A stretch of 64,000 nt of DNA from Dehalococcoidia bacterium (GTDB lineage: Bacteria > Chloroflexota > Dehalococcoidia > UBA6926): the NCBI GenBank assembly GCA_034428515.1, contig DAOUHQ010000015.1, positions 144,660 through 208,659 on the forward strand. Direction: 5' to 3'. Positions 2,457 to 45,403 of the stretch are shown one piece after another. Positions within the stretch are counted from its first letter, which is position 1. The number at the start of each line of letters is the position of its first letter. The notes under the pieces were generated by a model. It was not told where the DNA came from, made no database searches, and saw only the letters and a list, made by a program, of their open reading frames with translations. Both the position numbers and the translations under genes were made by a program.

Positions 2457-2936
2457 ATGCGGACAAACTCCTGGGTTTTCGCCACGATCGTCATATTTGC
2501 CCTGTTCATCGTCTTCCTCACAGGCAACCTGTACATCGTGCTCCTTATCGGCCTTCCAGTCCTCTTCACCATCGGACTCATCATCTTGTTCCGCAGAACA
2601 CGACCGGAGACCCCGCCTGTGCCGCTGCCCGCCGGGCCGCTCCTTGAACCCGCCCAGCTTGAGGGACGCATCGACCGTATGGCCGTTGAGGACGTGGAAA
2701 TCGAGGGTGCGACGTCCGGACTCTTTTCGGCAGGACCCAAATACAACTCAGTACTCGTCATCATTATCAGCGGCATCCGGTACCGACTAGACCCTGCTCC
2801 GCTTCGCCGCGGCGGCTATGACTGGATGAAAGAGGGCTTGTGGGTCAAAGCGACTTTTGACCGCCAGTCACGCGTCATCCACGAAATCGAACAGGCGCCC
2901 GGCCCACAAGGATACGGCGCTCCGCCGCGCACCTAA
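2457..2936 (+). CDS. hypothetical membrane-anchored protein
   Basis: Two N-terminal TM helices (VFATIVIFALFIVFLTGNLYIVLLIGLPVLFTIGLIILF) followed by a soluble domain. Confidence 0.5.
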   Translation: MRTNSWVFATIVIFALFIVFLTGNLYIVLLIGLPVLFTIGLIILFRRTRPETPPVPLPAGPLLEPAQLEGRIDRMAVEDVEIEGATSGLFSAGPKYNSVLVIIISGIRYRLDPAPLRRGGYDWMKEGLWVKATFDRQSRVIHEIEQAPGPQGYGAPPRT

Positions 2937-3706
2937 CGAATCAGCCGCGCCTTCATCCGTGCGACGGCAAGGTAGTAGAACGCCGCGCCGAGAACAACGA
3001 GATAGAGAAGCCCCCAAACGGTCGTCATTGATAGGCTGCCGGCAACCAGTTCACGAATAACGGCGACGTACGGCGTAAGTGGGATGATCCATGCCAGTTC
3101 CCGCACAACGTCCGGATACCGCTCCAGCGGGAAGAACACGCCCCCGAAGAAATACATCGGCATCACACCAAGCGTGATTGCATAATTGAAAGTCCAGAAT
3201 GACGGCGCGTGCGCGGTGACCAGCAGCGCCATCGATGAGAACAGGATCCCGCCAAGGAATGCGAGCGGCGGAATGAGGATAGCCAGCGGCGAATCGACGA
3301 ATCCCATCACCGTCAACACAAACAGGATCACGGTCGCGCTGAATACCGACCGTGTTGCGCCCCATAAGACCTCGCCGGTAATGACGTCCTCAATGGACAA
3401 CGGCGTAGCGATCATGGCCTCGTATAAACCTCGTATGGCCATGCGGGTATAGGAACCGTATGTGCATTCAAAAAACGCCGCAAAGAGTGAATATCCACCG
3501 ACGATGCCCGGCCCGATGAACTGCACATAGCTCTCATCGCCGCTCAACGAAACGTACGCGCCCAAGCCAATCCCCATTGCGCCCAATACGACCAGCGGCT
3601 CCACGAACAGCGGCCCCACCTCCGCCATCGCGAATTTCTTGAAGACCGTCCAGTTCCGCCGCCACACGCGGAAGCCAAACGGTACACGTTCAGGCGTCAA
3701 TAGCAT
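2933..3706 (-). CDS. ABC-2 type exporter permease (DrrB/NodJ-like)
   Basis: Six-TM ABC-2 architecture, directly downstream of an ABC ATPase. Confidence 0.8.
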   Translation of the reverse strand: MLLTPERVPFGFRVWRRNWTVFKKFAMAEVGPLFVEPLVVLGAMGIGLGAYVSLSGDESYVQFIGPGIVGGYSLFAAFFECTYGSYTRMAIRGLYEAMIATPLSIEDVITGEVLWGATRSVFSATVILFVLTVMGFVDSPLAILIPPLAFLGGILFSSMALLVTAHAPSFWTFNYAITLGVMPMYFFGGVFFPLERYPDVVRELAWIIPLTPYVAVIRELVAGSLSMTTVWGLLYLVVLGAAFYYLAVARMKARLIR

Positions 3707-32529: not shown

Positions 32530-34740
32530 CTATGAATCCATCAATGCTGTCTCCCACGTGGAGGCGGCATCGGAGAGCGGGATATCGATGAGGCCGGTGA
32601 TGGTGAGGGAGTCGCCACCCACAGCGCCAATCTCACACATGGCGACTCCGTTTTGCTCGCACAATTCACGGAGCACATTCAGGTCATCTGAGGCGGCGGA
32701 CACAACGATACGCGCGGGCGCTTCCCCAAAGAGGGCGGCGTCTATGCGGTCGTTTCCAGCCAGGCCAAGTTCAAGGGATGCTCCAGTGCCGCCAATGGCG
32801 CAGGATTCTGCCACAGCGACGGCAAGGCCGCCCTCTGAGACGTCGTGGGCGGAGGTGATGAGTCCCCGGGCGATGGCCTCACGCAAGAGGGTTTGCACTC
32901 GGGCCTCGGCGTCGAGATCGACAGCTGGGCGTCCGGCCACGGTGTTGTGGATGCGGGAGAGGTATTCGCTTGCGCCGAGCGTTTCAATGGAGAGTTCGGC
33001 GGAAGATGCGCCCAGGAGGATGACGCGGTCGCCCTCGCTGCGGAAGCCGGCGCCGGCACGGTGAGAGAGGTTATCGAGCAGGCCGACCATCCCCACCGTA
33101 GGGGTGGGGTCGATGGGGCCGTCAGCGGACTCGTTGTAGAGGCTGACGTTGCCGCTGATGACGGGGATGTTGAGGGAGCGGCAGGCGTCGGCCATGCCGC
33201 GGATTGCCTGCTCAAATTGGTAAGCGATGGGCTCGCGCTCCGGGTTGCCGAAGTTGAGGCAGTCCGTGATGGCAAGCGGACGCGCGCCGACGCATGAGAG
33301 GTTCCGGGCGGCCTCAATGACGGTGAGAGCGCCGCCGGCGTAGGGGTCGAGATAGCAGGCCCGGGAGTTAACGTCGATGGTGAGGGCGATGCCCTTATTG
33401 GTTCCCTTGATACGAAGGACGGCGGCATCAGCGTCGCCCGGGGGCAATACAGTGTTGTTGCCGACCTGGTGGTCGTATTGCTGATAGACAGGGCGTTTGC
33501 TGGCGAGGGAGGGGGCGGCGAGCATTTGGAGGAGGGTCTCATTCCAATCTGAGGGCTGGGGGAGATCGGAGAGATCGCGGTCGCGGAGGGCGGCGATCGC
33601 GGGGTCTTCAACACCGGAGAGTTCGTAGGCGGGGGGTTCGGTGAGGGCGGCAATGGGCATGTCTCCGACGATTTCTCCGTTATCGCGAATGATTGCGCGG
33701 TCGCCGTCAGTGACGACGCCTATCTCGTCGCAGGCGAGTTCCCACTTTTCACAGATAGCACGGGTTTTGGCGACGTTTTCAGGGGGGACGACGAGGAGCA
33801 TTCGCTCCTGGGATTCGGAGAGCATGATTTCGTAGGCGGACATGCCATCCTCGCGGCGGGGGACACGGGCGACATCTATATCAACGCCGTTGTTGGCGCG
33901 GGCGGCGCATTCAATGACAGAGCTGGTGAGGCCTCCAGCGCCGAGGTCCTGCATTCCGACGAGGAGGCCGGCCTGGGCGATCTCAAGGCAGCCTTCAAGC
34001 ACGAGTTTTTCGAGGAAGGGGTTGCCGACCTGTACGGCGGGGCGTCGCTCTGCTGACTCCTCGGAGAGGTCGACGGAGGCGAAGGTTGCGCCGTGGATGC
34101 CATCGCGGCCGGTGTCCGCGCCGACGAGGAGGAGGATGTTGCCTGCGCCGCCGGTGCTTGCGCGGATGATCTCATTTTCCTTTGCGATGCCGACGCACAT
34201 GGCGTTGACGAGCGGGTTGCCGGAGTAGGCGGGGGCGAATGTGACCTGCCCTGCGACGTCCGGGATGCCGATGCAGTTGCCGTAGCCGCCGATACCGGCG
34301 ACGACGCCCTCGAAGAGGTAGCGGTTACGGGGCCTCTCGTCCAACGGGCCAAAGAAGAGGGCGTTGAGGAGGGCGATGGGGCGAGCGTTCATGCTGAAGA
34401 TGTCACGGATGATACCGCCGACGCCTGTCGCCGCGCCCTGGTAGGGCTCAATGGCGGAGGGGTGGTTGTGTGATTCCACCTTCATCACAACAGCGAGGCC
34501 GTCACCGATGGAGACTGCGCCTGCGTTCTCCTCGCCGGGGCCTATCAATACCCATGGGGCTTCGTTGGGGAAGAGGTTGAGGAGGAGGCGGGAGTGTTTG
34601 TAGCCGCAGTGCTCGCTCCAGAGGATGCCGAACATGCCAAGCTCGACCTCATTCGGCTCGCGGTCCATTCGGCGAACGATCTCGTCGTATTCGTCGCGTG
34701 ATAGGGAGAGTTCAGCGAGGGTGGCGTCTGAGGCGGTCAT
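32530..34740 (-). CDS. purL: phosphoribosylformylglycinamidine synthase subunit PurL
   Basis: FGILWSEHCGYKHS, two AIRS-like repeats, about 736 aa. Confidence 0.9.
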   Translation of the reverse strand: MTASDATLAELSLSRDEYDEIVRRMDREPNEVELGMFGILWSEHCGYKHSRLLLNLFPNEAPWVLIGPGEENAGAVSIGDGLAVVMKVESHNHPSAIEPYQGAATGVGGIIRDIFSMNARPIALLNALFFGPLDERPRNRYLFEGVVAGIGGYGNCIGIPDVAGQVTFAPAYSGNPLVNAMCVGIAKENEIIRASTGGAGNILLLVGADTGRDGIHGATFASVDLSEESAERRPAVQVGNPFLEKLVLEGCLEIAQAGLLVGMQDLGAGGLTSSVIECAARANNGVDIDVARVPRREDGMSAYEIMLSESQERMLLVVPPENVAKTRAICEKWELACDEIGVVTDGDRAIIRDNGEIVGDMPIAALTEPPAYELSGVEDPAIAALRDRDLSDLPQPSDWNETLLQMLAAPSLASKRPVYQQYDHQVGNNTVLPPGDADAAVLRIKGTNKGIALTIDVNSRACYLDPYAGGALTVIEAARNLSCVGARPLAITDCLNFGNPEREPIAYQFEQAIRGMADACRSLNIPVISGNVSLYNESADGPIDPTPTVGMVGLLDNLSHRAGAGFRSEGDRVILLGASSAELSIETLGASEYLSRIHNTVAGRPAVDLDAEARVQTLLREAIARGLITSAHDVSEGGLAVAVAESCAIGGTGASLELGLAGNDRIDAALFGEAPARIVVSAASDDLNVLRELCEQNGVAMCEIGAVGGDSLTITGLIDIPLSDAASTWETALMDS

Positions 34741-34815
34741 GGTTTGAGTCTAGCAGTGTGACGGGGTAATGATGAGGGTGTTCCGTCCGCTCGATCCACA
34801 TCGAGGAGGCGTGCG

Positions 34816-36093
34816 ATGAAAGCTGCTGATTCTGCAAGGCAACGCAGAGACACGCTGTGGAGGTTTTTGGGCCCGTTGGTGGCAGGCATGTCTGTGCTCT
34901 TGCTCATCGTAGGCGCGGGGGTTGGGTGTGACGCTTTTTCTGACGATGAGGAGACCCCGCTCAAGATTGGCTTGCTGTTGAATTTCACGGGGTCGCCGGA
35001 GGCGTCGGCGGACAGGCAGCGGGCGTTCGAGTTGGCGATTGCACATGTCAATGAGGCGGGAGGCGTGTTGGGGATGCCGGTGAGCGGGGTGGTGGCGGAT
35101 GCGACCGGGGATCCTGAGACTGCGGTTGAGGAGGCGACGCGGCTGGTTGACGAGGAGGGGGTTCACGCGATTGTAGGACCGAATGCGAGTTCTGCGTCTC
35201 TGCCAATCGCCGAGAAAGTGTCTGGCCCGCACAACATTCCGACGATAAGTCCGTCCGCAACGTCGCCCTCACTGACCGGTGTTCACGATGAGGGGTATTT
35301 CTTCAGGACGGCGCTTTCGGATGTGGCCCAGGGGCCAATTCTTGCGGACGTTGCCCAACGGCAGGGGTTCGATAGCGTCGGAGTGATCTATCAGGATGAC
35401 GCCTATGGGGCGGGGCTTGCGGAGTCGTTCGCTGCAGCGTGGGAGGGCCGGCTCGTTGCCGTCGGGGTCGATCCGACCGTGACCGTCCTTGCGGGGCCGC
35501 TGGAGGAGTCGGCGCAGGGCGGCGGGCAAGCGCTGGTCGTGATTGGATTCGAGGGTCTGGCAATCGAGATGGTTAAGCAGGCCATCGATGGCGGTGTTTA
35601 TAGCGATTTCGTCTTTGCCGACGCGGCCAAGCGGTTGAGTCTCGTTGAGGAGATCGGCGTCGAGCGCCTGGGTGGGATGTACGGGACGGGGAGCGCGCAC
35701 CCACCCCACAGCGACGCTACGGAGAGCTGGGATGACGCCTACATTGCCGCCTATGGGGAACTTCCCGTTCTCGCCTATGTGAAGGAGACGTATGACGCGA
35801 CGGTGGCGATTACGCTGGCGGCGGAGGCGGCGGGCAGCGTCGACGGCGAGGCGATCCGCGATCAGCTACGTGGAATAGCGGAGTCGCCGGGTGATCCCAT
35901 TCCCGGCACTCCTGCCGGCGTTGCCGATGCTCTTGAGCTGCTCGGTGAGGGCAAGGACATCGATTACGAGGGGACGTCGGGCGTTTTGGAGTGGGATGAG
36001 CACGGGGACCTGCGGCGGGGGTTTGTGGGCGTGTGGCGTTTCACCGCCGATGGGCGTATTGAGGATCTGGAGAGTATTCCGTACGGGGGGTAG
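34816..36093 (+). CDS. ABC transporter substrate-binding protein (branched-chain amino acid/LivK type), lipoprotein
   Basis: Signal and lipobox (LLLIVGAGVGC); periplasmic-binding-protein type I fold markers. Confidence 0.8.
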   Translation: MKAADSARQRRDTLWRFLGPLVAGMSVLLLIVGAGVGCDAFSDDEETPLKIGLLLNFTGSPEASADRQRAFELAIAHVNEAGGVLGMPVSGVVADATGDPETAVEEATRLVDEEGVHAIVGPNASSASLPIAEKVSGPHNIPTISPSATSPSLTGVHDEGYFFRTALSDVAQGPILADVAQRQGFDSVGVIYQDDAYGAGLAESFAAAWEGRLVAVGVDPTVTVLAGPLEESAQGGGQALVVIGFEGLAIEMVKQAIDGGVYSDFVFADAAKRLSLVEEIGVERLGGMYGTGSAHPPHSDATESWDDAYIAAYGELPVLAYVKETYDATVAITLAAEAAGSVDGEAIRDQLRGIAESPGDPIPGTPAGVADALELLGEGKDIDYEGTSGVLEWDEHGDLRRGFVGVWRFTADGRIEDLESIPYGG

Positions 36094-36111
36094 GCAGTGG
36101 GCAGAGGGGAT

Positions 36112-36155
36112 GTGGCCCTGCAGGCCACGCGGTGGATTCCGGCCTCCGCCGGAAT
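36112..36155. terminator. two adjacent stem-loops (GTGGCC-ctgca-GGCCAC and ATTCCGGC-ctcc-GCCGGAAT) between convergent genes
   Basis: Inverted repeats seen in sequence; no clear U-tract. Confidence 0.3.
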
Positions 36156-36193
36156 GACGGAGCCTCATGGATTGCGGCTGTAACGGCCATTGG

Positions 36194-36727
36194 CTAGGTT
36201 GAGTATCTTATCTCCCGTGTTCCATCGGCTCTTGAAGTGAGTATTTCCCTTCCGGGTTCAATTGGCCCCCACACATGCTCGAGTACATCTTCCTCTTCTT
36301 CCAAGTTGGCGCAAACCCACACGTGGCACTCAGGCAAGCTACCCTCAGATCGTGAATGGAAAGCGAAGGCTGCTGCGGCTCCCGTATTTTCTGGGTCAAG
36401 CAGAGGGTTTGAGACGCCGCCCCAGTCCATAACCAATCCAGCTTTGCGCGATTCACCCCTCGCCAGCTTCACTTCGATAGACCCTGCCGTGACCATGACC
36501 TCGCCCTCGCTGCTATCTACTTTGAGTAGAAATTCCATTCTGGGCTTGCTCTCTTTTGGATTGTCTAGTTCCGGGAGGAATTGCAATAGGAGCTTTCGTG
36601 GAATCCTCGGCCCCGGGTTGCGTCCACCCATTGCCATAGTGTCTCTGCCAGACAGCCGTTTTACCCACCAAGATTCGGTATGCTCCCATTGTTCGTTTAG
36701 CCAGTCGTAGAACTTTTGCGAGTGCAA
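36194..36727 (-). CDS. stand-alone EcoRII-N-like (B3-like) DNA-binding effector domain protein
   Basis: Residue-level resemblance to the N-terminal effector domain of EcoRII as I recall it: FYDWLNE, VKRLSGRDTMAMGGRNPGPRIP, LLDPENTGAAAAFAF, HVWVCANLEEEEDVLE. The gene is AT-rich. Confidence 0.6.
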   Translation of the reverse strand: MHSQKFYDWLNEQWEHTESWWVKRLSGRDTMAMGGRNPGPRIPRKLLLQFLPELDNPKESKPRMEFLLKVDSSEGEVMVTAGSIEVKLARGESRKAGLVMDWGGVSNPLLDPENTGAAAAFAFHSRSEGSLPECHVWVCANLEEEEDVLEHVWGPIEPGREILTSRADGTREIRYST

Positions 36728-36778
36728 TTAGTCCCTCCAATCTCTATTGCAGCGAAAGCCGCTTTCTGTGGGGCGAAT

Positions 36779-37588
36779 TCATCCAAGGAATATGTTCTCA
36801 CGGTGATACGCGAGGAATTCAGGATGCGGTCTGAATTTTTCGGGGGGAGAGATTGCTTGGCCGTCATAGGACACAACGCTCTGAACGAAGAACTCATCCG
36901 CGCTTGATATGTGACTCTTCGCTACCCTAACAACCAATTCTTCATCGATGGTGATGAATCCGCGATCAAATGCCTTGTCATGGAGGGCAGAAAGCAGGAG
37001 TCCATTGCGTGGGTTGAGTCTATTCGTTTGGTTGATTTTCCACGGCACAATATGGCTGGCCACAAGCAGCGGCTCCAGAGTGAGTCCCGAGATGCAGCAC
37101 CTGTAGTTGTAGGAGCTAAGCAGCGCGTCTCGGAAGAAATCTTGACCGACTCGCCGAGTAGTGAACACCTCTCGTTCAGTGAGGCGATGCTCCACGTCTT
37201 CGTCCTCTGTGTCAGTAGTAGTATCCCTCTCTCTGAGTAACCCGTAGTCGTGGAGTGCCACAGTGGCTTCCTCTACAAAGGCCGTCCAATCAGAGTTCAT
37301 CTCAGCCCAGATGGCACGGTCACCGGTTGACACGTTTCTGAGCCCCGAGATTCCTCGCCCTCTGAGACCGGGATCAAGGCTTGCAAGGTTCACAAGTTTC
37401 ATCGCAACAGCGCTGGATGTTCTTGCGATTGCCTGCGCTACAGTTACGACCTCAGGATTGCGCGAGTGCATCTGACCAAATGAAATGCGGCAGTAGAGAT
37501 TGAGGATGATAAGCAACTCTGCGCGCGTCCACCGGCGTCGGGGAGACGGGCGTTGCGAGTTGTCCGAGTTTCGTCCTTGATTGACCAC
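36779..37588 (-). CDS. HNH endonuclease (HNH_2-type) with an uncharacterised N-terminal domain of about 140 aa
   Basis: Catalytic motif CISGLTLEPLLVASHIVPW...NGLLLSALHDKAFDRGFITID. AT-rich; 51 nt upstream of the EcoRII-N-like gene on the same strand. TTGTGA-16-TATAAT promoter-like elements at 37617-37595. Confidence 0.75.
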   Translation of the reverse strand: MVNQGRNSDNSQRPSPRRRWTRAELLIILNLYCRISFGQMHSRNPEVVTVAQAIARTSSAVAMKLVNLASLDPGLRGRGISGLRNVSTGDRAIWAEMNSDWTAFVEEATVALHDYGLLRERDTTTDTEDEDVEHRLTEREVFTTRRVGQDFFRDALLSSYNYRCCISGLTLEPLLVASHIVPWKINQTNRLNPRNGLLLSALHDKAFDRGFITIDEELVVRVAKSHISSADEFFVQSVVSYDGQAISPPEKFRPHPEFLAYHRENIFLG

Positions 37589-38513
37589 GCGGCAATTATA
37601 GGCACTTAGCTAAGATTCACAATAAGTGTGGGGAAACTGAGGCTTTGGATTCCTCGGCTGCGCTCGGAATGACATGGGAAACTGCATCATCGGACGCGAC
37701 TCACCCTGTGGTCAGCGGCAGCGTGCCCCCCCAATGTGACACCCCCGCCTTGACCCATCCCAAACGCCTGTCCTAAAGTCACCCACAACAAGCCATACCC
37801 CCGGCGGTGGGGAACGTCGACAACCCCGCCGTCACCTATCCCCGGGAGCGCAAAAAGGAGGGCGCGCCCTGCAAGGAACGCATCCGCTGTCAGGATTCCG
37901 AAGTTAACCTGCGGGAGAACGCGGCTATGCGGTCGCATAAGGCCGTAAGCGACAGCGCCCCGTCCAGATGCCTCCACCGTCCCCAGGCCAACGCCGCGAC
38001 CCGAGCGGGGGCGATGAGAGAAGACGCGTGCTCCACACGGGTCGAGACCCGAAAGGCCTCAGGCAAGTGGAGCGCATGGCGCCCGATGATGACGTGGCAG
38101 CATCAGCGGGCGAGCACGGATCAACCGTCTGGCATGCGCTCGTATGTCAGGCGAGGGACGGACTCTCGGCCACGCCAAAAAACGCAGACCGAGAACTGAC
38201 GCGCGAACAGTGCCACCATGCTGCTCGCGCGCCACACGGGCGAGTCTATGTTTGGCGCAGCGCAACCCGCCCAAGCGCAGGGCCGTCCCCCTGGCGCGAC
38301 CCCACCCGAGCTCGAAACCGCGCGCCAACCGACCCCAACCCACAGCCCCGGAACCGACAGCGGATGCGTTCCCCAAGCCCCGCCAAACCAAATCATCAGG
38401 AAGGAGAAACCCCACAGCACTCAAAGACAAAATCCCCCCCGTGCGGGGAAAGGCTAGCTGACATCTACAGGAATGACGGAGGTAGTGAGGCGCGGGGATG
38501 ACGGAGAGTGGCG

Positions 38514-39449
38514 TTAGGGGAGTTCTGTGTAGTCTTCGTCCCAGTCGTCGGCGTGGCGGATCAGGTCTTTTAGGGGGGTGCCGCCCTGTTCGCTGTCGAG
38601 GCTTGGGGGGGCGAGTCGTGTGGGGAGGGTCGCGCCGTCGCCGCCTGCAAGCATGAGGATGGAATCGACGAGGTTTTCGCGCCCGTCCCACTTTGTGCCG
38701 GGGCGGCGGATGGCGACGGTTGGGTTGAGGGCGGCGATGACTGCGGCTCGCAGGACATCCTCCTGCATCCACATGGGCTGCTCCCGTATGTCCGCTTCCT
38801 GTGCATGACCGCACGCCCCACAGTTGAATTGGGCGCGATCCCAATCGGGATCGTAGTCGGTTGTGCCGCTTATGGACCCACATTCACGGCAGGCGGCTCC
38901 GGCGAATGTCAGCGGCTCGTCATCAACCTCATCAGTCACTCCTGACTCGCGTATCGCGTCTGCAATCTGGGCGGGGGACCTGAGGGCGAGGCGGAGGACT
39001 GAAAGGAAGCCTGACTTATCGGCAAGTTCGGACGTTCGGACAATTTCGATTTCCGAGGCGCGGGCCGAGTCCTTGAGTTCCTGCGTGTTGGCATCAAAAA
39101 GCGCCTCCCAGTGCTGGGCGCGGGAGTCATCACACGCCTCCGGATCCGGCTGGCGGCCATATGTCTTGCCTGACGGAGTCTGGTTGAATGGACGGCCGGG
39201 GGCGTGGTTGGCCTCATCGGTTGCCAAGTCCGGCACGACGTAGATGACGCGAAGCATCGCCGACTGATTGCCGCCTCGGCGTAATCGACGCGCCAGGGAG
39301 CCCGGATAAGCGAGTAGGCGGAGGCGGTCAGCCTCGGTCAGCGCGGCCATGGGGATTTCCCCGGCCAGCACGGCATCGCCGGATTGCAACAGTTCACCGA
39401 CCTCCGAGAGGCCGGCGGCGTTGCGGTAGAGGCGTTCGGCGGTGGTCAC
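38514..39449 (-). CDS. hypothetical protein with C-terminal zinc-ribbon (start uncertain: GTG 39449 or ATG 39350)
   Basis: The ORF extends to 39815, but its first 115 codons overlap the rhodanese gene and are Ser/Arg-rich junk. The remainder has balanced composition with CRECGS...CGACGH. Confidence 0.45.
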   Translation of the reverse strand: MTTAERLYRNAAGLSEVGELLQSGDAVLAGEIPMAALTEADRLRLLAYPGSLARRLRRGGNQSAMLRVIYVVPDLATDEANHAPGRPFNQTPSGKTYGRQPDPEACDDSRAQHWEALFDANTQELKDSARASEIEIVRTSELADKSGFLSVLRLALRSPAQIADAIRESGVTDEVDDEPLTFAGAACRECGSISGTTDYDPDWDRAQFNCGACGHAQEADIREQPMWMQEDVLRAAVIAALNPTVAIRRPGTKWDGRENLVDSILMLAGGDGATLPTRLAPPSLDSEQGGTPLKDLIRHADDWDEDYTELP

Positions 39450-39471
39450 GAAATGGGAGTCGGCAAGGGGA

Positions 39472-40308
<837 letters not shown>

Positions 40309-40490
40309 TGTATTGCCCCCACTCTTTCGCTTCTCACAAGAGAAACCGTACCTGCGCTAGGTTCGCAGTATGGCAAAGCATCGTCAAGGGGGGCACGTAC
40401 CGCTCGCCCTTCGAGAGGCTCAGGGTGAGCGGGATGCGCGGCATCGGTATCATGGCTGTAGTGGGGTAGAAGTCAGGAGCTATTGAGACG

Positions 40491-40928
40491 ATGCGCGTCA
40501 TGGTTCTGATTAAGGCGACCGCCGAGAGCGAGGCGGGAGTTATGCCGTCCACGGAGCTGCTTGAGGCCATGGGCAGGTACAACGAGGAGCTTGTGGAGGC
40601 GGGCGTGATGCTGGGTGGCGAGGGGATCAAGCCCTCTGAACACGGCAAGCGCGTTGTGCTTGACGGCGATACGAACACTGTCAGTCACGGTCCTTTCGCT
40701 GAGACAGATCAGCTCATTGCCGGTTTCTGGATCTGGCAGGTTGCGGACATGGATGAGGCGGTGGCGTGGGTAAAGCGGTGTCCGCAGCCAATGCCGGGAA
40801 TGGCGGAGATCGAGATTCGGCCGCTCTACGAGACGGAGGATTTCACACCGGAGATGACGGAGGAGCAGGCGGCGCGGGAGAACGAGTTACGGGAGCGTGT
40901 AGCTGCGACGGAGTCCGGACCCCAATGA
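40491..40928 (+). CDS. YciI-like (Dabb fold) protein
   Basis: MRVMVLIKATAESEAG...AGFWIWQVADMDEAVAW matches the YCII-related domain. Confidence 0.7.
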   Translation: MRVMVLIKATAESEAGVMPSTELLEAMGRYNEELVEAGVMLGGEGIKPSEHGKRVVLDGDTNTVSHGPFAETDQLIAGFWIWQVADMDEAVAWVKRCPQPMPGMAEIEIRPLYETEDFTPEMTEEQAARENELRERVAATESGPQ

Positions 40929-42007
40929 CTCTCTTAAGAACACCTCTATTTGATTCTCATGTCGCGCTTGGGGCGCGGATCGTTGAGTTTGGCGGGTGGG
41001 ATATGCCCGTGCAGTACTCGAACGGCGTGCTGGCGGAACATGCGGCAGTGCGACAAGGCGTTGGCATGTTCGATGTCTCGCACATGGGGCGCATCAGGCT
41101 GACGGGGGAGAATGCGGGCGGCGCGCTCGACCGCGTCGTGACCAGCAATGTTGGAACACTACGGGTGGGCCGCGCTCGCTACGGGCTTATCTGCAACGAA
41201 TCCGGCGGGATCCTGGACGATGTCGTCGTCATGCGGCTTGCCGATGACGAGTTCCTGATGGTGTGCAACGCGGCGAGCTGGGACCGGATCACGGACTGGC
41301 TTGGTCGGCATTGCGAGGGCGTGTCTATCAATCACGAGCGTGACGAGACGTCGATGATGGCCGTGCAGGGGCCGGGGGCGGTCGATGCGCTACAGGCGCT
41401 CGTCGACATTGAGCTTGGCGATGTGGGGCGCTTTGCGTGCCGCGCTGTGACGGTGGCCGGCACATCAGGGCTTATCTCCCGGACCGGGTATACGGGTGAA
41501 GACGGGTTTGAGGTGATCGTGCCGACGGGTGAGGCGGCGCGTGTGTGGCAGACGCTTGTTGACGAGCGTGGGGTTGCACCATGCGGCCTTGCGGCGCGGG
41601 ACGTGTTGCGGCTCGAAGCGGGCCTGATGCTTTACGGACAGGACATGGACGATACGGTGACGCCGCTGGAGGCAGGACTCGATCGATTCGTGAACCTGGA
41701 CAAGGACTTTTTGGGTGTCGAGAGGCTGAGAGAGCAGGCGGAAAGCGGGCTAGAGCGGCGCATCACGGGTCTCACGGTGGAGGGCCGGTCTGCGCCGCGA
41801 CATGGCTATGCGGTCCGAACAACGGACGGGCGAGAGTCCGTCATAACGAGCGGGGCGTATTCGCCTGTGCTCGGCTATGGGGTTGCTCTGGCGTATGTGC
41901 CGATCGACGTGACTGAACCGGGGAACGTCGTGAATGTTGATATCCGTGGTCGGACGGTTCAAGCAACGACGGCGCCGCTGCCGTTCTTACAGGCGAATCG
42001 CGGTTAG
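40925..42007 (+). CDS. gcvT: glycine cleavage system aminomethyltransferase T
   Basis: TPLFDSHVALGARIVEFGGWDMPVQY, GMFDVSHMG. Confidence 0.9.
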   Translation: MTLLRTPLFDSHVALGARIVEFGGWDMPVQYSNGVLAEHAAVRQGVGMFDVSHMGRIRLTGENAGGALDRVVTSNVGTLRVGRARYGLICNESGGILDDVVVMRLADDEFLMVCNAASWDRITDWLGRHCEGVSINHERDETSMMAVQGPGAVDALQALVDIELGDVGRFACRAVTVAGTSGLISRTGYTGEDGFEVIVPTGEAARVWQTLVDERGVAPCGLAARDVLRLEAGLMLYGQDMDDTVTPLEAGLDRFVNLDKDFLGVERLREQAESGLERRITGLTVEGRSAPRHGYAVRTTDGRESVITSGAYSPVLGYGVALAYVPIDVTEPGNVVNVDIRGRTVQATTAPLPFLQANRG

Positions 42008-42111
42008 CAACATGGCAACAGCTTCGGCAAATCCCTCCGTTCAGCGGCTAGAATAAATGGGCACTTTGCCGCTCCGCGCGGCGTTGAGACGCACGAATTG
42101 GGGGTCGTGAA

Positions 42112-42519
42112 ATGCCATTTGATCCGGCAGGCTTGCTATTCAGTCGAGAACACGAGTGGGTGGCGCGTGATGAGTCCGATCAGAGCGCGGTGACCGTCGG
42201 GATTACGAACTACGCGCAGGGCGAACTCGGCGACGTTGTATACGTTGACCTGCCTGCCGATGGGGCGGCGGTCAAGCAGTTTGAGACATTCGGCGAGGTG
42301 GAATCGGTCAAGTCGGTGTCGGACCTGTTCTCGCCGATAAGCGGGACTGTTGCCGAGGTTAATTCCACGCTGGAGGACAAGCCTGAGCTGGTGAACGAGG
42401 ACCCGTACGGCGAGGGATGGATGCTTCGCGTGACGATTGAGGACGAGCGAGAGCTGCAGAGCCTGCTTTCGCACGATGAATACCAGGAATTTCTTACGGA
42501 GTTGAGCGGCGGTGACTGA
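42112..42519 (+). CDS. gcvH: glycine cleavage system H protein (lipoyl carrier)
   Basis: Lipoyl-lysine motif ESVKSVSDLFSP. Confidence 0.9.
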   Translation: MPFDPAGLLFSREHEWVARDESDQSAVTVGITNYAQGELGDVVYVDLPADGAAVKQFETFGEVESVKSVSDLFSPISGTVAEVNSTLEDKPELVNEDPYGEGWMLRVTIEDERELQSLLSHDEYQEFLTELSGGD

Positions 42520-45403
42520 AAAGCGTAACCCTGCACCCTTTGTTCCCATGACGGCTGCCGACAGGCAGCACATGCTCGATGTAGTTGGCGTCAACGCCGT
42601 TGATGACCTGTTCGCGGATATTCCCGCAGAGTTCAAGGACCCGGAATTGGGCCTGCCCCCGGCGTTGTCCGAGCATGATGTCGTGACGCACATGGGCCAT
42701 CTGTCGGCGATGAACGTGTCCGCGGACGCTGCACCCTCGTTTCTGGGAGGCGGGTTTGCGCGGCACTATGTCCCGAACGCGGTGGGAGCAATCATCTCTC
42801 GCGGCGAGTTTCTGACGCCATATACGCCATACCAGCCGGAGGCGAGCCAGGGCATTCTGCAGGCGCTCTTTGAGTTCCAGACCATCGTCTGTGAACTTAC
42901 CGGCATGGATGCCGCGAACACAGGGATGTATGACGGCGCGAGCGGGCTGGCGGAAGCGGCGCTGATGGCGTGCAGACTAACGCGCAGGCGCACGGTTGCC
43001 GTACACGAGAGCGTATCGCCGCTGTATCGCGCTGCGTTGGAGACATATGCAGGGGCGCAGGAGATCACGGTGGTCGACGGCATCGACGACGCGCCTGAGG
43101 GCGAGCTTGCGTGTCTGATCATTCAGCAACCTGCGTATGACGGCCTCATAGATGACGATCCCGATGCGCTTGCCGACGCGATTCATGAGCGCGGCGGGCT
43201 GCTGGTGGTGGCCGTGGAACCGGTGTCGCTCGCGTTGATACGGCCGCCGGGAGAGTATGGGGCGGACATTGTCGTCGCGGAGGGGCAGCCGCTTGGAATC
43301 GCGTTGGGATTCGGCGGGCCGGGCGTTGGGTTCTTCGCATGCAAGACCGAGTATCTGCGGCAGATGCCGGGGCGGATAGTTGGGCGCAGCGTGGACGCTG
43401 ACGGGCGCGATGCGTTTGTGCTGACGCTGCAAACGCGCGAGCAACACATCCGTCGCGAGAAGGCCACGTCCAATATCTGTACGGCTGAGACGTTGGCGGC
43501 CATCGCGGTGGCAGTTCATACCGCCGCTCTCGGCCCTCACGGGCTGCGCGAAGTCGCTTTCAGCTGTTACCAGGCCACGCACAACGCGGCGCGGCGCATT
43601 GCTCGCCTGCCCGGGTTCTCGATTCACGGGGGCGAGGATGCGCTGTTTATCAAGGAGTTCGTTGTTGCGTGCCCCATCCCTCCTGCGGACGTGAACCTGC
43701 GGTTGTGGGAGCAGCACGGCATCATCGGCGGGATCGATGTTTCCGACCGCGTGCCGAACGGTCTCTTGTTGTGCATCACGGAGACCTCGACGACGACCGA
43801 TATTGATAGGCTCGTTAGCGCTCTTGCGGGCATCGCGGATGTATTCGCAGAGGCGGACGGCGAGGGAGAGGCGACAAGTATTTCGGATTGGCCGGCGGTC
43901 GAAACGCCGGCGGCAGGCGACGGACTCATCCTCGCGATCGGCGATACGAATGAGAAACGGGTTCCGTTGCTGCTGGATGTTTCACGGCCTGCGCGGCGCG
44001 GGGTGACGACCCCTGTTCCGGCGGTCACCCCAATCGCGCCGCCGCTTCCTGCGTCGACGCTGCGCAAGCAACTGATTCTGCCGGAGATCAGCGAGCTTGA
44101 TGTTGTGCGGTATTTCACGCGCATCAGCCAATCGAATTACGCAGTCGATACGACCTTTTACCCGCTCGGGTCCTGCACGATGAAGTACAACCCGCGGGTC
44201 AATGAGACGGTTGCAGGCATGCCGGGGTTCGCGAACGCACATCCCTATCTGCCGCCTGAGGTTAGTGCAGGCACGCTGGGGGCGCTGTTCAGCTTGCAGG
44301 AGATGCTGGCGAGCGTTGTGGGGATGGACGCGACTAGTCTCGCGCCGTCCGCCGGGGCGCACGGCGAGTTGACGGGGATGCTGCTCTTCCGGGCGTATCA
44401 TCGAAGCCGCAGCGACAGTGGGCGCACCGTGGTTCTTTCGCCGGACTCCTCGCATGGGACGAACCCGGCGTCGGCGGCGATGGCCGGGTTCAATCTCGTG
44501 ACCGTGCCGACCGATGCCGTCGGGAACGTGGATATGGAGGCCTTGCAGCCACTGTTGGGGCCGGAGGTGGCGGGCATCATGCTGACGATGCCGACCACTT
44601 TGGGCCTGTTCGATCCGAACACCGCCGAGATCTGCCGCCTTATCCACGAGGCGGGGGGGCTGGTGTACGGCGACGGGGCGAATCTGAATGCGCTGCTTGG
44701 CCGCGCGCGGTTGGGTGACATGGGCTTCGACATCGTGCATATCAATGTTCACAAGACGTTTTCGACTCCGCACGGCGGCGGCGGGCCAGGCGCGGGCCCC
44801 GTCTGCGTGAAGGAACACCTGGCGGAGTTCCTGCCGACGCCGCACATCGAGCGGCGCGATGACGGGATGCTGCATCTGGCCGCGCCCGCGCAGTCTGTCG
44901 GGCGCATCGGCTCGGCGGCAGGGAACGTTGGGGTGCTGCTGCGCGCGTACACGTATTTCCGGATGCACGGGGAGGATGGTCTAAGAGAGGTGAGCGGGGC
45001 GGCGGTGCTGAACGCGAACTACATCCGCGCCCGGCTGAAGGACCACTACCACCTGCAATACGACCGCATCTGCATGCACGAGGCCGTTTTCTCGGCCACG
45101 CGGCAGCGGCGGCAGCATGACGTGCGGGCTGGGGATATCTGTAAGCGGCTGTTGGATCACGGATTCTACGCGCCGACGGTGTATTTCCCGCTGATCGTTG
45201 AAGAGGCGCTGATGATCGAGCCCACGGAGACGGAGAGTCGCGAGACGCTGGACGCGTTCATCGACGCAATGGTGTCCATCGCGCAGGAGGCGTCGGAGGA
45301 TCCTGAACTGGTTCGAGGCGCGCCACACACCACGCCGGTGCGCCGGATAGATGAAGCGCTGGCGGCGCGTCGGCCGGTACTGCGGTGGATGGAGCGGGAC
45401 TGA
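42512..45403 (+). CDS. gcvP: glycine dehydrogenase (decarboxylating), subunit-1 and subunit-2 fused in one 963-aa ORF
   Basis: The N-terminal half resembles GcvPA (YTPYQPEASQG). The C-terminal half resembles GcvPB (FYPLGSCTMKYNP; PLP-lysine region HINVHKTFSTPHGGGGPG). The two halves are joined by a linker of about 60 aa. Confidence 0.85.
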   Translation: MTEKRNPAPFVPMTAADRQHMLDVVGVNAVDDLFADIPAEFKDPELGLPPALSEHDVVTHMGHLSAMNVSADAAPSFLGGGFARHYVPNAVGAIISRGEFLTPYTPYQPEASQGILQALFEFQTIVCELTGMDAANTGMYDGASGLAEAALMACRLTRRRTVAVHESVSPLYRAALETYAGAQEITVVDGIDDAPEGELACLIIQQPAYDGLIDDDPDALADAIHERGGLLVVAVEPVSLALIRPPGEYGADIVVAEGQPLGIALGFGGPGVGFFACKTEYLRQMPGRIVGRSVDADGRDAFVLTLQTREQHIRREKATSNICTAETLAAIAVAVHTAALGPHGLREVAFSCYQATHNAARRIARLPGFSIHGGEDALFIKEFVVACPIPPADVNLRLWEQHGIIGGIDVSDRVPNGLLLCITETSTTTDIDRLVSALAGIADVFAEADGEGEATSISDWPAVETPAAGDGLILAIGDTNEKRVPLLLDVSRPARRGVTTPVPAVTPIAPPLPASTLRKQLILPEISELDVVRYFTRISQSNYAVDTTFYPLGSCTMKYNPRVNETVAGMPGFANAHPYLPPEVSAGTLGALFSLQEMLASVVGMDATSLAPSAGAHGELTGMLLFRAYHRSRSDSGRTVVLSPDSSHGTNPASAAMAGFNLVTVPTDAVGNVDMEALQPLLGPEVAGIMLTMPTTLGLFDPNTAEICRLIHEAGGLVYGDGANLNALLGRARLGDMGFDIVHINVHKTFSTPHGGGGPGAGPVCVKEHLAEFLPTPHIERRDDGMLHLAAPAQSVGRIGSAAGNVGVLLRAYTYFRMHGEDGLREVSGAAVLNANYIRARLKDHYHLQYDRICMHEAVFSATRQRRQHDVRAGDICKRLLDHGFYAPTVYFPLIVEEALMIEPTETESRETLDAFIDAMVSIAQEASEDPELVRGAPHTTPVRRIDEALAARRPVLRWMERD

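What the first reader, a model, noticed from the sequence alone, without database searches (positions are those of the whole stretch)
37589..38513. 925-bp GC-rich stretch with no plausible ORF and strong strand compositional bias, upstream of the HNH cassette
Every other intergenic space in this window is under 450 bp, but this one is 925 bp. All six frames give only Arg/Pro/Ser-rich shadow ORFs (for example 38059..38883 and 37968..38501) with no protein-like composition. The plus strand is markedly C/A-rich and G-poor. The minus strand is correspondingly G-rich, with runs such as GGGGGTGTCACATTGGGGGGGCACG. The plus strand contains many C-tracts and AAAAA-containing motifs, for example caaaaaggagg and ccaaaccaaatcatcaggaaggagaaacccc.

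This is not the signature of coding DNA. It fits a long structured or C-rich ncRNA, a decayed gene, or the scar or attachment region of the adjacent AT-rich islet. A TTGTGA-16-TATAAT promoter-like pair at its 3' edge (minus strand, 37617-37595) abuts the HNH start.
Basis: seen in the sequence. Interest (0 to 1): 0.5.

Follow-up and report, generated by a model that had tools for sequence, protein, structure and literature searches.

The report
Unannotated large structured RNA gene candidate
The "empty" 925 bp hold a conserved, non-coding unit of about 670 bases that looks like the gene for a large folded RNA of a kind not yet catalogued, found so far only in a small group of uncultured Dehalococcoidia, several from sponge metagenomes.

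Summary
Window 37589-38513 has no real gene and carries the strongest strand bias in the 64 kb: T is 10-12% and AT skew is +0.40.

Inside it is a discrete unit, about 37733-38453. I found it in 11 other metagenome or MAG loci at 69-93% identity, one copy per locus, in six different gene neighbourhoods. It is independent of the HNH cassette: L005 and L009 have the cassette without the unit, and L014 has the unit without the cassette.

It is not coding. Copies that are 92% identical differ by 1-2 nt indels, the ORFs have no Pfam hits, and codon scores are zero or negative.

It has a conserved promoter-like pair on the + strand (TTGACC-18-TAAAGT). A 26-pair long-range helix (37875-37905 with 38344-38372) joins conserved 5' and 3' segments around a variable 220-520 nt middle. 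Several helices show compensatory changes: 12 pairs against 2.4 in shuffles, and 10 against 1.0 in the terminal domain.

Rfam 15, ARAGORN, phage, plasmid and IMG/VR searches found nothing.

Best reading: a new, clade-restricted large structured ncRNA gene on the + strand. Transcription, strand and function are inferred, not shown.

The parts
37595..37622 (-). Promoter-like pair TTGTGA-16-TATAAT in front of the HNH_2 gene. It belongs to the neighbouring gene, not to the RNA unit.
   Evidence: 10 of 12 matches.
37628..37680 (.). REP-like palindromic repeat (core GGATTCCTCGGCTGCGCTCGGAATGAC, 37647-37673). It is flanking material, not part of the conserved unit.
   Evidence: Copies occur in many related loci, often several per locus. 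REP-like copies lie just upstream of the unit in most contexts.
37733..37785 (+). Conserved upstream block with the putative promoter: -35 TTGACC at 37750-37755, an 18-nt spacer, and -10 TAAAGT at 37774-37779.
   Evidence: Flagged (9 of 12). Identical in the 9 close copies. L057 keeps TTGACC/TACCAT and L014 keeps TTGCCC/TACCAT at the same spacing, while the spacer itself varies. Homology to all other loci begins here.
37786..38453 (+). Putative RNA of about 668 nt (A 24, C 36, G 30, U 10%). Both ends are inferred.
   Evidence: Homology block 37733-38440/38447 in 11 other loci. Composition.
37782..37802 (+). Invariant C/A-rich 5' tail, CCCACAACAAGCCAUACCCCC.
   Evidence: Identical in 10 of 11 copies. 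It served as the 18-mer probe.
37803..37833 (+). Hairpin P1 (37803-37812 pairs with 37824-37833).
   Evidence: Three pairs with changes on both sides, plus G-C/G.U exchanges. L014 and L057 have a different stem sequence but the same hairpin.
37844..37869 (+). Hairpin P2 (GGGAGCGC pairs with GCGCNCCC) with the loop AAAAAGGAGG at 37852-37861.
   Evidence: The stem never varies, so it is not tested. One internal position takes all four bases. GGAGG is invariant.
37875..37905 (+). 5' arm of the long-range helix P3. It includes the 17-nt perfect repeat arm 37875-37891.
   Evidence: 17 nt, 100% complementary, 464 nt apart; 26 pairs, and in L014 eight of them changed on both sides.
37906..38343 (+). 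Variable, multi-branched central domain. Helices with compensatory changes are at 38126-38153, 38163-38195 and 38207-38224.
   Evidence: helices 18, 20, 21. The stretch between the two conserved blocks is about 443 nt here and about 225 nt in L014. L057 carries an insertion of about 54 nt.
38344..38372 (+). 3' arm of P3. It includes the repeat arm 38356-38372.
38373..38433 (+). Conserved C/A-rich 3' tail with AAGGAG at 38401-38406.
   Evidence: It is conserved in L014 and partly in L057.
38434..38453 (+). Terminal G+C-rich hairpin. The T-run lies on the minus strand only (38433-38424).
   Evidence: One search lists it as a minus-strand terminator-like site. The stem sequence differs between copies but a hairpin is kept.
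38454..38513 (.). Non-conserved spacer with REP-like fragments (38470-38481 and 38495-38506) up to the stop codon of the convergent gene.

Best explanation
Window ~37733-38453 is a self-contained gene for a large structured non-coding RNA (~670 nt here, ~455-730 nt in relatives), read from the + strand.

**Architecture.** A sigma-70-type promoter (TTGACC-18-TAAAGT) sits at the 5' edge of the conserved block. A 26-pair long-range helix (P3) brings together two conserved segments:
- the 5' segment: a C/A-rich tail, hairpin P1, and hairpin P2 with an invariant GGAGG loop;
- the 3' segment: a C/A-rich tail with AAGGAG, and a terminal hairpin.

A large, more freely evolving, multi-branched domain sits at the tip of P3.

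**Proposed mechanism.** The RNA acts in trans as a stable RNA. The core closed by P3 is the functional part. It would serve as a scaffold or decoy that presents its invariant single-stranded C/A-rich and Shine-Dalgarno-like purine motifs to a partner, either a protein or the 16S 3' end.

**Shown versus inferred.** Shown: it is conserved, discrete, non-coding, single-copy per locus, and has covarying helices. Inferred: it is transcribed, from the + strand, with these ends. Speculative: the scaffold/decoy role.
For: **A discrete homology block in other genomes.** L026 and L028 came from the 18-mer scan. L051-L058 came from using the spurious 177-aa ORF as a protein probe. L014 came from synteny. 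Identity to the window is 91-93% in nine loci, 79% and 74% over two segments in L057, and 75% and 69% for the two end blocks in L014. There is exactly one copy per locus, and none elsewhere in the window or in the other loci held.

**Six neighbourhoods.** These are iscS/nadE; SWM_repeat to DEAD helicase; unknown to DUF418; HNH (PF01844) to MNT; HNH_2 to LysRS-like; and binding protein to LysRS-like. The downstream gene is always convergent.

**Not coding.** Copies 92% identical differ by 1- and 2-nt indels. ORFs have no Pfam hit and poor codon scores.

**Structure, full length (A5).** Of 175 consensus pairs, 12 changed on both sides, against 2.4 +/- 1.4 in shuffles (0 of 500 reached it) and 0-4 in slid controls. 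The covariation score is 0.074 against 0.022-0.036.

**Structure, terminal domain with L014 (A6).** Ten pairs changed on both sides against 1.0 in shuffles (0 of 500) and 0-4 slid. Eight of them lie in P3. P1 and P3 appear in the separate minimum-energy folds of the window, L057 and L014.

**Promoter.** The hexamers and their spacing are kept in L057 and L014 while the spacer changes.

**Inheritance.** Divergence of the unit tracks divergence of the host. For the L006 genome, flanks are 91.4% and the unit 92% identical. For L014, flanks are 79% and the end blocks 75% and 69%.

**Composition.** Long, G+C-rich, U-poor intergenic DNA is the signature used to find structured RNAs (PMC8632094, PMC6429828).
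Against: - There are no expression data.
- Only 11 distinct sequences exist, and nine of them are about 92% alike. Covariation therefore rests mainly on L057 and L014 and on few independent events. The RNAalifold covariation term on the full alignment is about 0.
- The single-sequence fold z-scores are weak: -1.8 on + and -1.9 on -.
- G.U against A.C counts do not separate the strands. SCI is 0.77 on + and 0.72 on -.
- The terminal hairpin has no U-run on the + strand.
- The promoter-like match on its own is no better than chance in this region: 2 found against 1.1 expected.
- Four different locations among copies about 92% identical is more movement than an ordinary resident gene shows.
- Nothing points to a specific function.
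Confidence: 0.68

Rival explanations
1. It is a non-autonomous mobile DNA element or a recombination-prone cassette. Its inverted repeat and hairpins would work at the DNA level, as sites for a transposase or recombinase, and not as RNA.
For: The unit lies in at least four different places among copies about 92% identical. In the L006 genome it is 150 kb from the slot it occupies in the window. It sits in variable slots next to REP-like repeats and nuclease genes. It has a long perfect inverted repeat.
Against: There is one copy per locus and no second copy in 64 kb or in the other loci. The inverted repeat is internal, about 140 nt from the left edge and about 80 nt from the right, not terminal. 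Comparison with L005 shows no target-site duplication and no clean empty site. No transposase or integrase is adjacent in any context. Divergence tracks the host. Short local hairpins also covary. Nothing was found in phage, plasmid or IMG/VR collections.
Confidence: 0.13
2. The functional RNA is on the minus strand. It would be a G/U-rich sRNA or 3'-UTR-derived RNA that shows anti-Shine-Dalgarno CCUCC motifs in a hairpin loop and a single strand, and represses translation in the manner of CcsR-type sRNAs.
For: Weak CcsR1 matches occur on the minus strand over P1/P2 in both the window and L057 (17.9 and 16.7 bits, E 0.2-0.3). The minus strand folds more stably and gives more consensus pairs. 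The wobble test is neutral.
Against: The CcsR1 scores are far below the gathering score of 65.3. No promoter-like site lies on the minus strand at the right edge. The conserved hairpin plus T-run sits where such an RNA would begin and would stop incoming transcription. There is no terminator at its far end. The conserved -35/-10 pair is on the + strand.
Confidence: 0.1
3. It is a decayed protein-coding gene: a pseudogene, for example the lost 3' part of the LysRS-like gene or a dead mobile-element gene.
For: The neighbouring protein matches only part of the class I LysRS profile. Gene callers do call ORFs here.
Against: The LysRS-like protein is complete at 310 aa, with a conserved C-terminus, in 20 relatives. 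The tested ORFs have no Pfam hit and codon scores are zero or negative. The block is retained with sharp edges and compensatory pair changes in genomes whose flanks are unalignable.
Confidence: 0.04
4. It is a scar, attachment site or regulatory region of the HNH/EcoRII-N restriction islet.
For: The two are adjacent in the window. A second, unrelated HNH gene lies next to the copy in L057.
Against: L005 and L009 carry the same islet in the same slot without the unit. L014 and at least eight other loci carry the unit without the islet. The two HNH proteins are unrelated.
Confidence: 0.03

Closest known systems
OLE RNA (ornate, large, extremophilic; Rfam RF01071)
   Same: A large (~600 nt), stand-alone bacterial ncRNA restricted to one lineage. 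It has long-range helices and invariant single-stranded stretches, and its function is not evident from sequence.
   Different: There is no sequence or structure match, even at E <= 10. The phylum is different. No oapA/B/C-like partner genes are adjacent. This RNA is very U-poor.
GOLLD and ROOL RNAs (large ornate RNAs that form RNA-only cages; PMC12286853)
   Same: The size class is similar, the architecture is multi-branched, and function is unknown.
   Different: There is no Rfam match. The unit is not near tRNAs or prophage genes, and it is absent from phage and IMG/VR collections.
HEARO / IscB omega-RNA (HNH endonuclease-associated RNA)
   Same: A structured RNA next to an HNH nuclease gene, in the window and in L057.
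   Different: The HNH genes are divergent, unrelated to each other, lack RuvC/IscB architecture, and are missing from most contexts. There is no Rfam HEARO match.
Protein-sequestering sRNAs (CsrB/RsmZ, CrcZ, 6S)
   Same: It has repeated exposed motifs (GGAGG, AAGGAG, ACAACAAG-type C/A-rich stretches) on a stable trans-acting RNA. This is what I think it may work like.
   Different: It is much larger and has only two purine motifs. No Rfam match exists and no partner is identified. The resemblance is an idea, not a test.
MITE or REP-type intergenic repeats
   Same: It is intergenic, holds an inverted repeat, lies in variable slots and is flanked by genuine REP-like repeats.
   Different: It is single-copy and about 700 bp long. 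The inverted repeat is internal, there is no target duplication, and it has its own promoter-like pair.

Membership tests
Any Rfam 15 family (incl. OLE, GOLLD, ROOL, HEARO, raiA, RNase P, tmRNA, 6S, SRP, group I/II introns, riboswitches) | A covariance-model score at or above the family's gathering score. | tested here: not met
   There were 0 matches at gathering thresholds in the whole window. With permissive filters at E <= 10, only chance-level hits appeared in the window, L057 and L014. The best was CcsR1 at 17.9 bits against a gathering score of 65.3.
tRNA / tmRNA | Cloverleaf or tRNA-like domain with a tag reading frame. | tested here: not met
   ARAGORN found none in the window.
HEARO / IscB omega-RNA | The RNA lies immediately upstream of, and co-oriented with, an IscB ORF (RuvC plus HNH). 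| tested here: not met
   The neighbour is a 269-aa HNH_2 restriction-type protein, divergently oriented. It is absent from most contexts.
MITE / non-autonomous transposon | Terminal inverted repeats at the element's ends, a target-site duplication, and multiple copies per genome. | tested here: not met
   The inverted repeat is internal (against the boundaries). No duplication is seen at the edges. There is one copy per locus. Whole genomes could not be scanned.
Protein-coding gene or pseudogene | A reading frame kept between homologues, or similarity to a protein family. | tested here: not met
   1- and 2-nt indels separate copies 92% identical. There are no Pfam hits and codon scores are poor.
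Structured ncRNA (generic) | Conserved secondary structure supported by compensatory changes beyond controls. | tested here: met
   Twelve pairs changed on both sides against 2.4 in shuffles and 0-4 slid. Ten pairs against 1.0 in shuffles and 0-4 slid in the terminal domain. Caveat: few, related sequences, and the structure was derived from the same alignments.
Structured ncRNA (generic) | A discrete transcript with a defined strand and ends. | not testable with these tools
   No expression data are available. The strand is inferred from a conserved promoter-like pair.
CcsR-type anti-SD sRNA (minus-strand reading) | Two hairpins with CCUCCUCCC loops, own promoter and terminator, about 80 nt. 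| tested here: not met
   Scores were 17.9 and 16.7 bits against a gathering score of 65.3. There is no minus-strand promoter-like site at the right edge.

The most novel reading that the evidence does not exclude
This is the first member seen of a new class of large (about 0.45-0.73 kb) structured RNA, specific to a clade of uncultured Dehalococcoidia, several from sponge metagenomes. It has a conserved core clamped by a 26-bp helix and an expandable central domain. Its job would be comparable in rank to OLE, ROOL or GOLLD: an RNP scaffold, a self-assembling RNA, or a ribozyme.
Probability: 0.5. Interest if true: 0.75.

Novelty: new variant of a known kind. Interest (0 to 1): 0.6.

Why it matters
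Bacterial non-coding RNAs longer than about 500 nt with conserved architecture are rare. The few known classes (RNase P, tmRNA, group II introns, OLE, GOLLD, ROOL) have each turned out to be ribozymes, RNP cores or self-assembling cages. A new class from uncultivated Dehalococcoidia would add to that short list.

It would also correct database entries. Gene callers currently label this locus as 128-210 aa hypothetical proteins (P0020-P0029).

The element also gives a compact test case: a conserved core plus a middle that can shrink from about 440 nt to about 220 nt. That suits structure probing or cryo-EM.

The narrow distribution and the lack of any functional lead limit its immediate reach.

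Tried and rejected
- **Rfam.** I ran it at gathering thresholds and in permissive mode on three homologues. Nothing was found.
- **tRNA/tmRNA.** ARAGORN found none.
- **Remainder of a truncated class I LysRS gene.** Rejected, because that protein is complete and conserved.
- **Single-sequence folding.** The z-scores were uninformative: -1.8 on + and -1.9 on -.
- **Strand assignment by G.U against A.C counts, and by RNAalifold on both strands.** Inconclusive.
- **18-mer metagenome scan.** It gave 26 hits, of which only two were real.
- **nhmmer with profiles of the 5', middle and 3' parts.** No further copies in the window or in about 0.5 Mb of related loci.
- **Phage, plasmid and IMG/VR searches.** Nothing.
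- **Pairwise identity of the unit against iscS and nadE in three loci that share a context.** These genomes are too close (92-95%) to show selection.
- **Literature searches for a described Dehalococcoidia or Chloroflexota large RNA.** Nothing relevant.
- **Crude codon-usage gene model to verify the intergenic-length claim.** It mis-scored atypical genes, so that claim is only spot-checked.
- **Replication origin.** Rejected from the sequence: G+C is 65%, there is no AT-rich unwinding element, I saw only one weak DnaA-box-like site by eye, and the cumulative GC skew shows no large-scale turn in the stretch profiled (33000-43000).

Full report
**1. The observation**

The 925 bp between the HNH_2 gene and the next gene are truly intergenic. 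The HNH_2 gene is 36779-37588 on the minus strand, and its 269-aa form matches a PADLOC HNH model end to end. The next gene, also on the minus strand, ends at 38514.

The long ORFs that cross the stretch exist because one strand is T-poor and the other A-poor, so stop codons are scarce. They have no Pfam hit and their codon-usage scores are zero or negative.

The composition is A 24, C 34, G 30, T 12%. In 700-nt windows the AT skew peaks at +0.40 at 37751-38450, about 3.9 sd from the window mean, and T drops to 10%. The bias is therefore real, but it is a lack of T, not of G. The only comparable skew in the window is a membrane-protein gene. The minus-strand promoter-like pair in front of the HNH gene is present.

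**2. What flanks it**

The right-hand neighbour hits part of the class I LysRS profile. This raised the idea that the stretch is the dead 3' half of that gene. It is not. The protein is a complete 310-aa family with a conserved C-terminus in 20 relatives.

These relatives, and 21 loci fetched with them, are Dehalococcoidia MAGs. The window itself comes from JGI sample 3300002734, contig PetF_10000048.

The LysRS-like gene and purL are syntenic, and the slot between them is a variable hotspot:
- Some genomes have 27-80 bp there.
- Some have only the binding-protein gene.
- L005 and L009 have the HNH/EcoRII-N cassette but lack about 800 bp of our stretch.
- L014 has about 1 kb with partial homology to our stretch and no HNH cassette.

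So the stretch and the cassette are independent.

**3. A discrete unit found elsewhere**

The window and L014 share two blocks: 37735-37884 and 38327-38411.

An 18-mer from the first block pulled two real homologues out of metagenomes (L026, L028). They lie next to a cysteine-desulfurase gene, which is a different neighbourhood.

Gene callers had annotated a 177-aa ORF over the stretch. I used that spurious protein as a probe and fetched the contigs of its 'homologues'. This gave eight more loci.

All homologues share a block that begins at window 37733-37750 and ends at about 38398-38447 (L054 is cut at its 5' end). Identity is 91-93% in nine loci. In L057 it is 79% and 74% over two segments.

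Profile searches find exactly one copy per locus and none elsewhere.

There are six neighbourhoods, and the downstream gene is convergent in every one. In the L006 genome the unit lies about 150 kb from the LysRS-like slot.

Nothing similar is in the phage, plasmid or IMG/VR collections.

**4. Not coding**

Copies that are about 92% identical differ by several 1- and 2-nt indels. Examples are CATA-CCCC against CATACCCCC, GC-ATAAGG against GCAATAAGG, and CAC--CTATCC against CACTACCATCC. No reading frame survives these.

**5. Structure**

The 17-nt perfect inverted repeat, 37875-37891 with 38356-38372, is the core of a 26-pair long-range helix, P3 (37875-37905 with 38344-38372).

In L014 both arms differ from the window at eight paired positions, and pairing is kept. 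Hairpin P1 (37803-37833) likewise has a different stem in L057 and L014. Three central helices (38126-38153, 38163-38195, 38207-38224) change on both sides between the close copies and L058 or L057.

Counts against controls:

| Alignment | Pairs in structure | Pairs changed on both sides | Shuffled mean | Shuffles reaching it | Slid controls |
|---|---|---|---|---|---|
| A5, full length | 175 | 12 | 2.4 | 0 of 500 | 0-4 |
| A6, terminal domain with L014 | 42 | 10 | 1.0 | 0 of 500 | 0-4 |

P1 and P3 are also found in the independent minimum-energy folds of three divergent members.

Caveats:
- The sequences are few and related.
- The structures were derived from the same alignments.
- The RNAalifold covariation term for the full alignment is about zero.
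- Hairpin P2 never varies, so it is untested.

The resulting picture has conserved 5' and 3' segments clamped by P3 around a middle. The stretch between the two conserved blocks is about 443 nt here and about 225 nt in L014, and L057 carries an insertion of about 54 nt.

**6. Strand and ends**

A promoter-like pair, TTGACC-18-TAAAGT (37750-37779), lies just inside the left edge of conservation. Its hexamers and spacing are kept in L057 (TTGACC/TACCAT) and L014 (TTGCCC/TACCAT), while a third of the spacer changes. This places a start near 37786, right before the invariant CCCACAACAAGCCAUACC.

No comparable site exists on the minus strand at the right edge.

The right edge is a G+C-rich hairpin (38434-38453). 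Its stem differs between copies but is always a hairpin. Oddly, its T-run is on the minus strand, so it would stop the convergent neighbour rather than the RNA itself.

Wobble-pair counts and two-strand RNAalifold do not separate the strands. I therefore favour the + strand on promoter evidence only.

**7. Comparison with known systems**

Rfam 15 gives nothing at gathering thresholds. Permissive searches of three members give only chance-level hits, and ARAGORN gives nothing.

- **HEARO / IscB RNA.** Not this. The adjacent HNH genes in the window and L057 are divergent, unrelated to each other, restriction-type, and absent elsewhere.
- **MITE.** Not this. The unit is single-copy, its inverted repeat is internal, and there is no target duplication.
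- **Closest in kind.** The closest are the orphan large bacterial RNAs: OLE, GOLLD and ROOL (PMC12286853, PMC9723947).

The long, G+C-rich intergenic signature is the one used by published discovery pipelines (PMC8632094, PMC6429828). Three literature searches found no description of such an RNA in Dehalococcoidia or Chloroflexota.

**8. Mechanism**

- **Shown.** It is a conserved, discrete, non-coding, single-copy unit with covarying helices.
- **Inferred.** It is a stand-alone + strand transcript of about 670 nt.
- **Speculative.** The P3-clamped core presents invariant single-stranded C/A-rich tails and two Shine-Dalgarno-like purine motifs (GGAGG in the P2 loop at 37857-37861, and AAGGAG at 38401-38406). 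It may therefore act as a scaffold or decoy for a protein or for the 16S 3' end.

The unit's divergence tracks host divergence, which suggests a resident gene. Yet it has moved between slots in closely related genomes. REP-like repeats lie just upstream of the unit in most contexts and downstream in several, and recombination between them is a plausible but untested cause.

**9. Verdict**

This is a candidate new class of large structured ncRNA, restricted so far to a handful of uncultured Dehalococcoidia. Transcription and function remain to be shown.

Noticed in passing
window 38514-39446 (-): This is a complete 310-aa protein, conserved in 20+ Dehalococcoidia and always next to a rhodanese gene. 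It matches only positions ~90-216 of the class I lysyl-tRNA synthetase profile (PF01921, E 4e-8; TIGR00467 at 23 bits against a cut-off of 147). It carries a CxxC...CxxC motif. It looks like a stand-alone LysRS-derived domain of unknown role.
   Followed up: partly
window 37647-37673, 38470-38506; many sites in L005, L009, L014, L051-L058: Families of short REP-like palindromes (GGATTCC...GGAATGAC; CTCAGGGTGAAC) fill the intergenic DNA of these genomes. They lie upstream of the RNA unit in most contexts and downstream in several.
   Followed up: partly
window 34790-38513 and the same slot in L003-L023: The slot between the LysRS-like gene and purL is a hotspot. Across 21 related genomes it holds from 27 bp to about 5 kb of different cargo.
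   Followed up: partly
window 36194-37588 (-): A lower-GC islet (0.50-0.55) encodes an HNH_2 nuclease (PADLOC HNH PDLC04132, E 7e-102, with weak similarity to a phosphorothioate-DNA restriction enzyme) and a 177-aa protein made only of the EcoRII N-terminal domain. It looks like a restriction-type defence pair. L005 and L009 carry it without the RNA unit.
   Followed up: partly
window 37968-38501 (+) and P0020-P0029: Public gene calls (JGI, ENA, NCBI, Logan) annotate ORFs of 128-210 aa across the RNA unit as hypothetical proteins. These are artefacts of the T-poor strand, but they proved useful as handles for finding homologous DNA.
   Followed up: yes
L057 2962-3702 (-) and 4348-4966 (-): The most divergent full-length copy of the unit lies between a different, unrelated HNH nuclease (PF01844, with weak PtuB-like hits) and an MNT-type nucleotidyltransferase with a small partner ORF. 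This is the second time an HNH gene lies divergently next to the unit.
   Followed up: partly
window 2800-3700: This is the second strongest AT skew in the window (+0.31). It is an ABC-2 permease gene on the minus strand next to its ATPase, so it is ordinary.
   Followed up: yes
window 38434-38453 and the equivalent site in all close copies: The terminal hairpin of the unit is preceded by an A-run on the + strand. It therefore reads as an intrinsic terminator only for the convergent neighbour, yet it moves with the unit into every neighbourhood.
   Followed up: no
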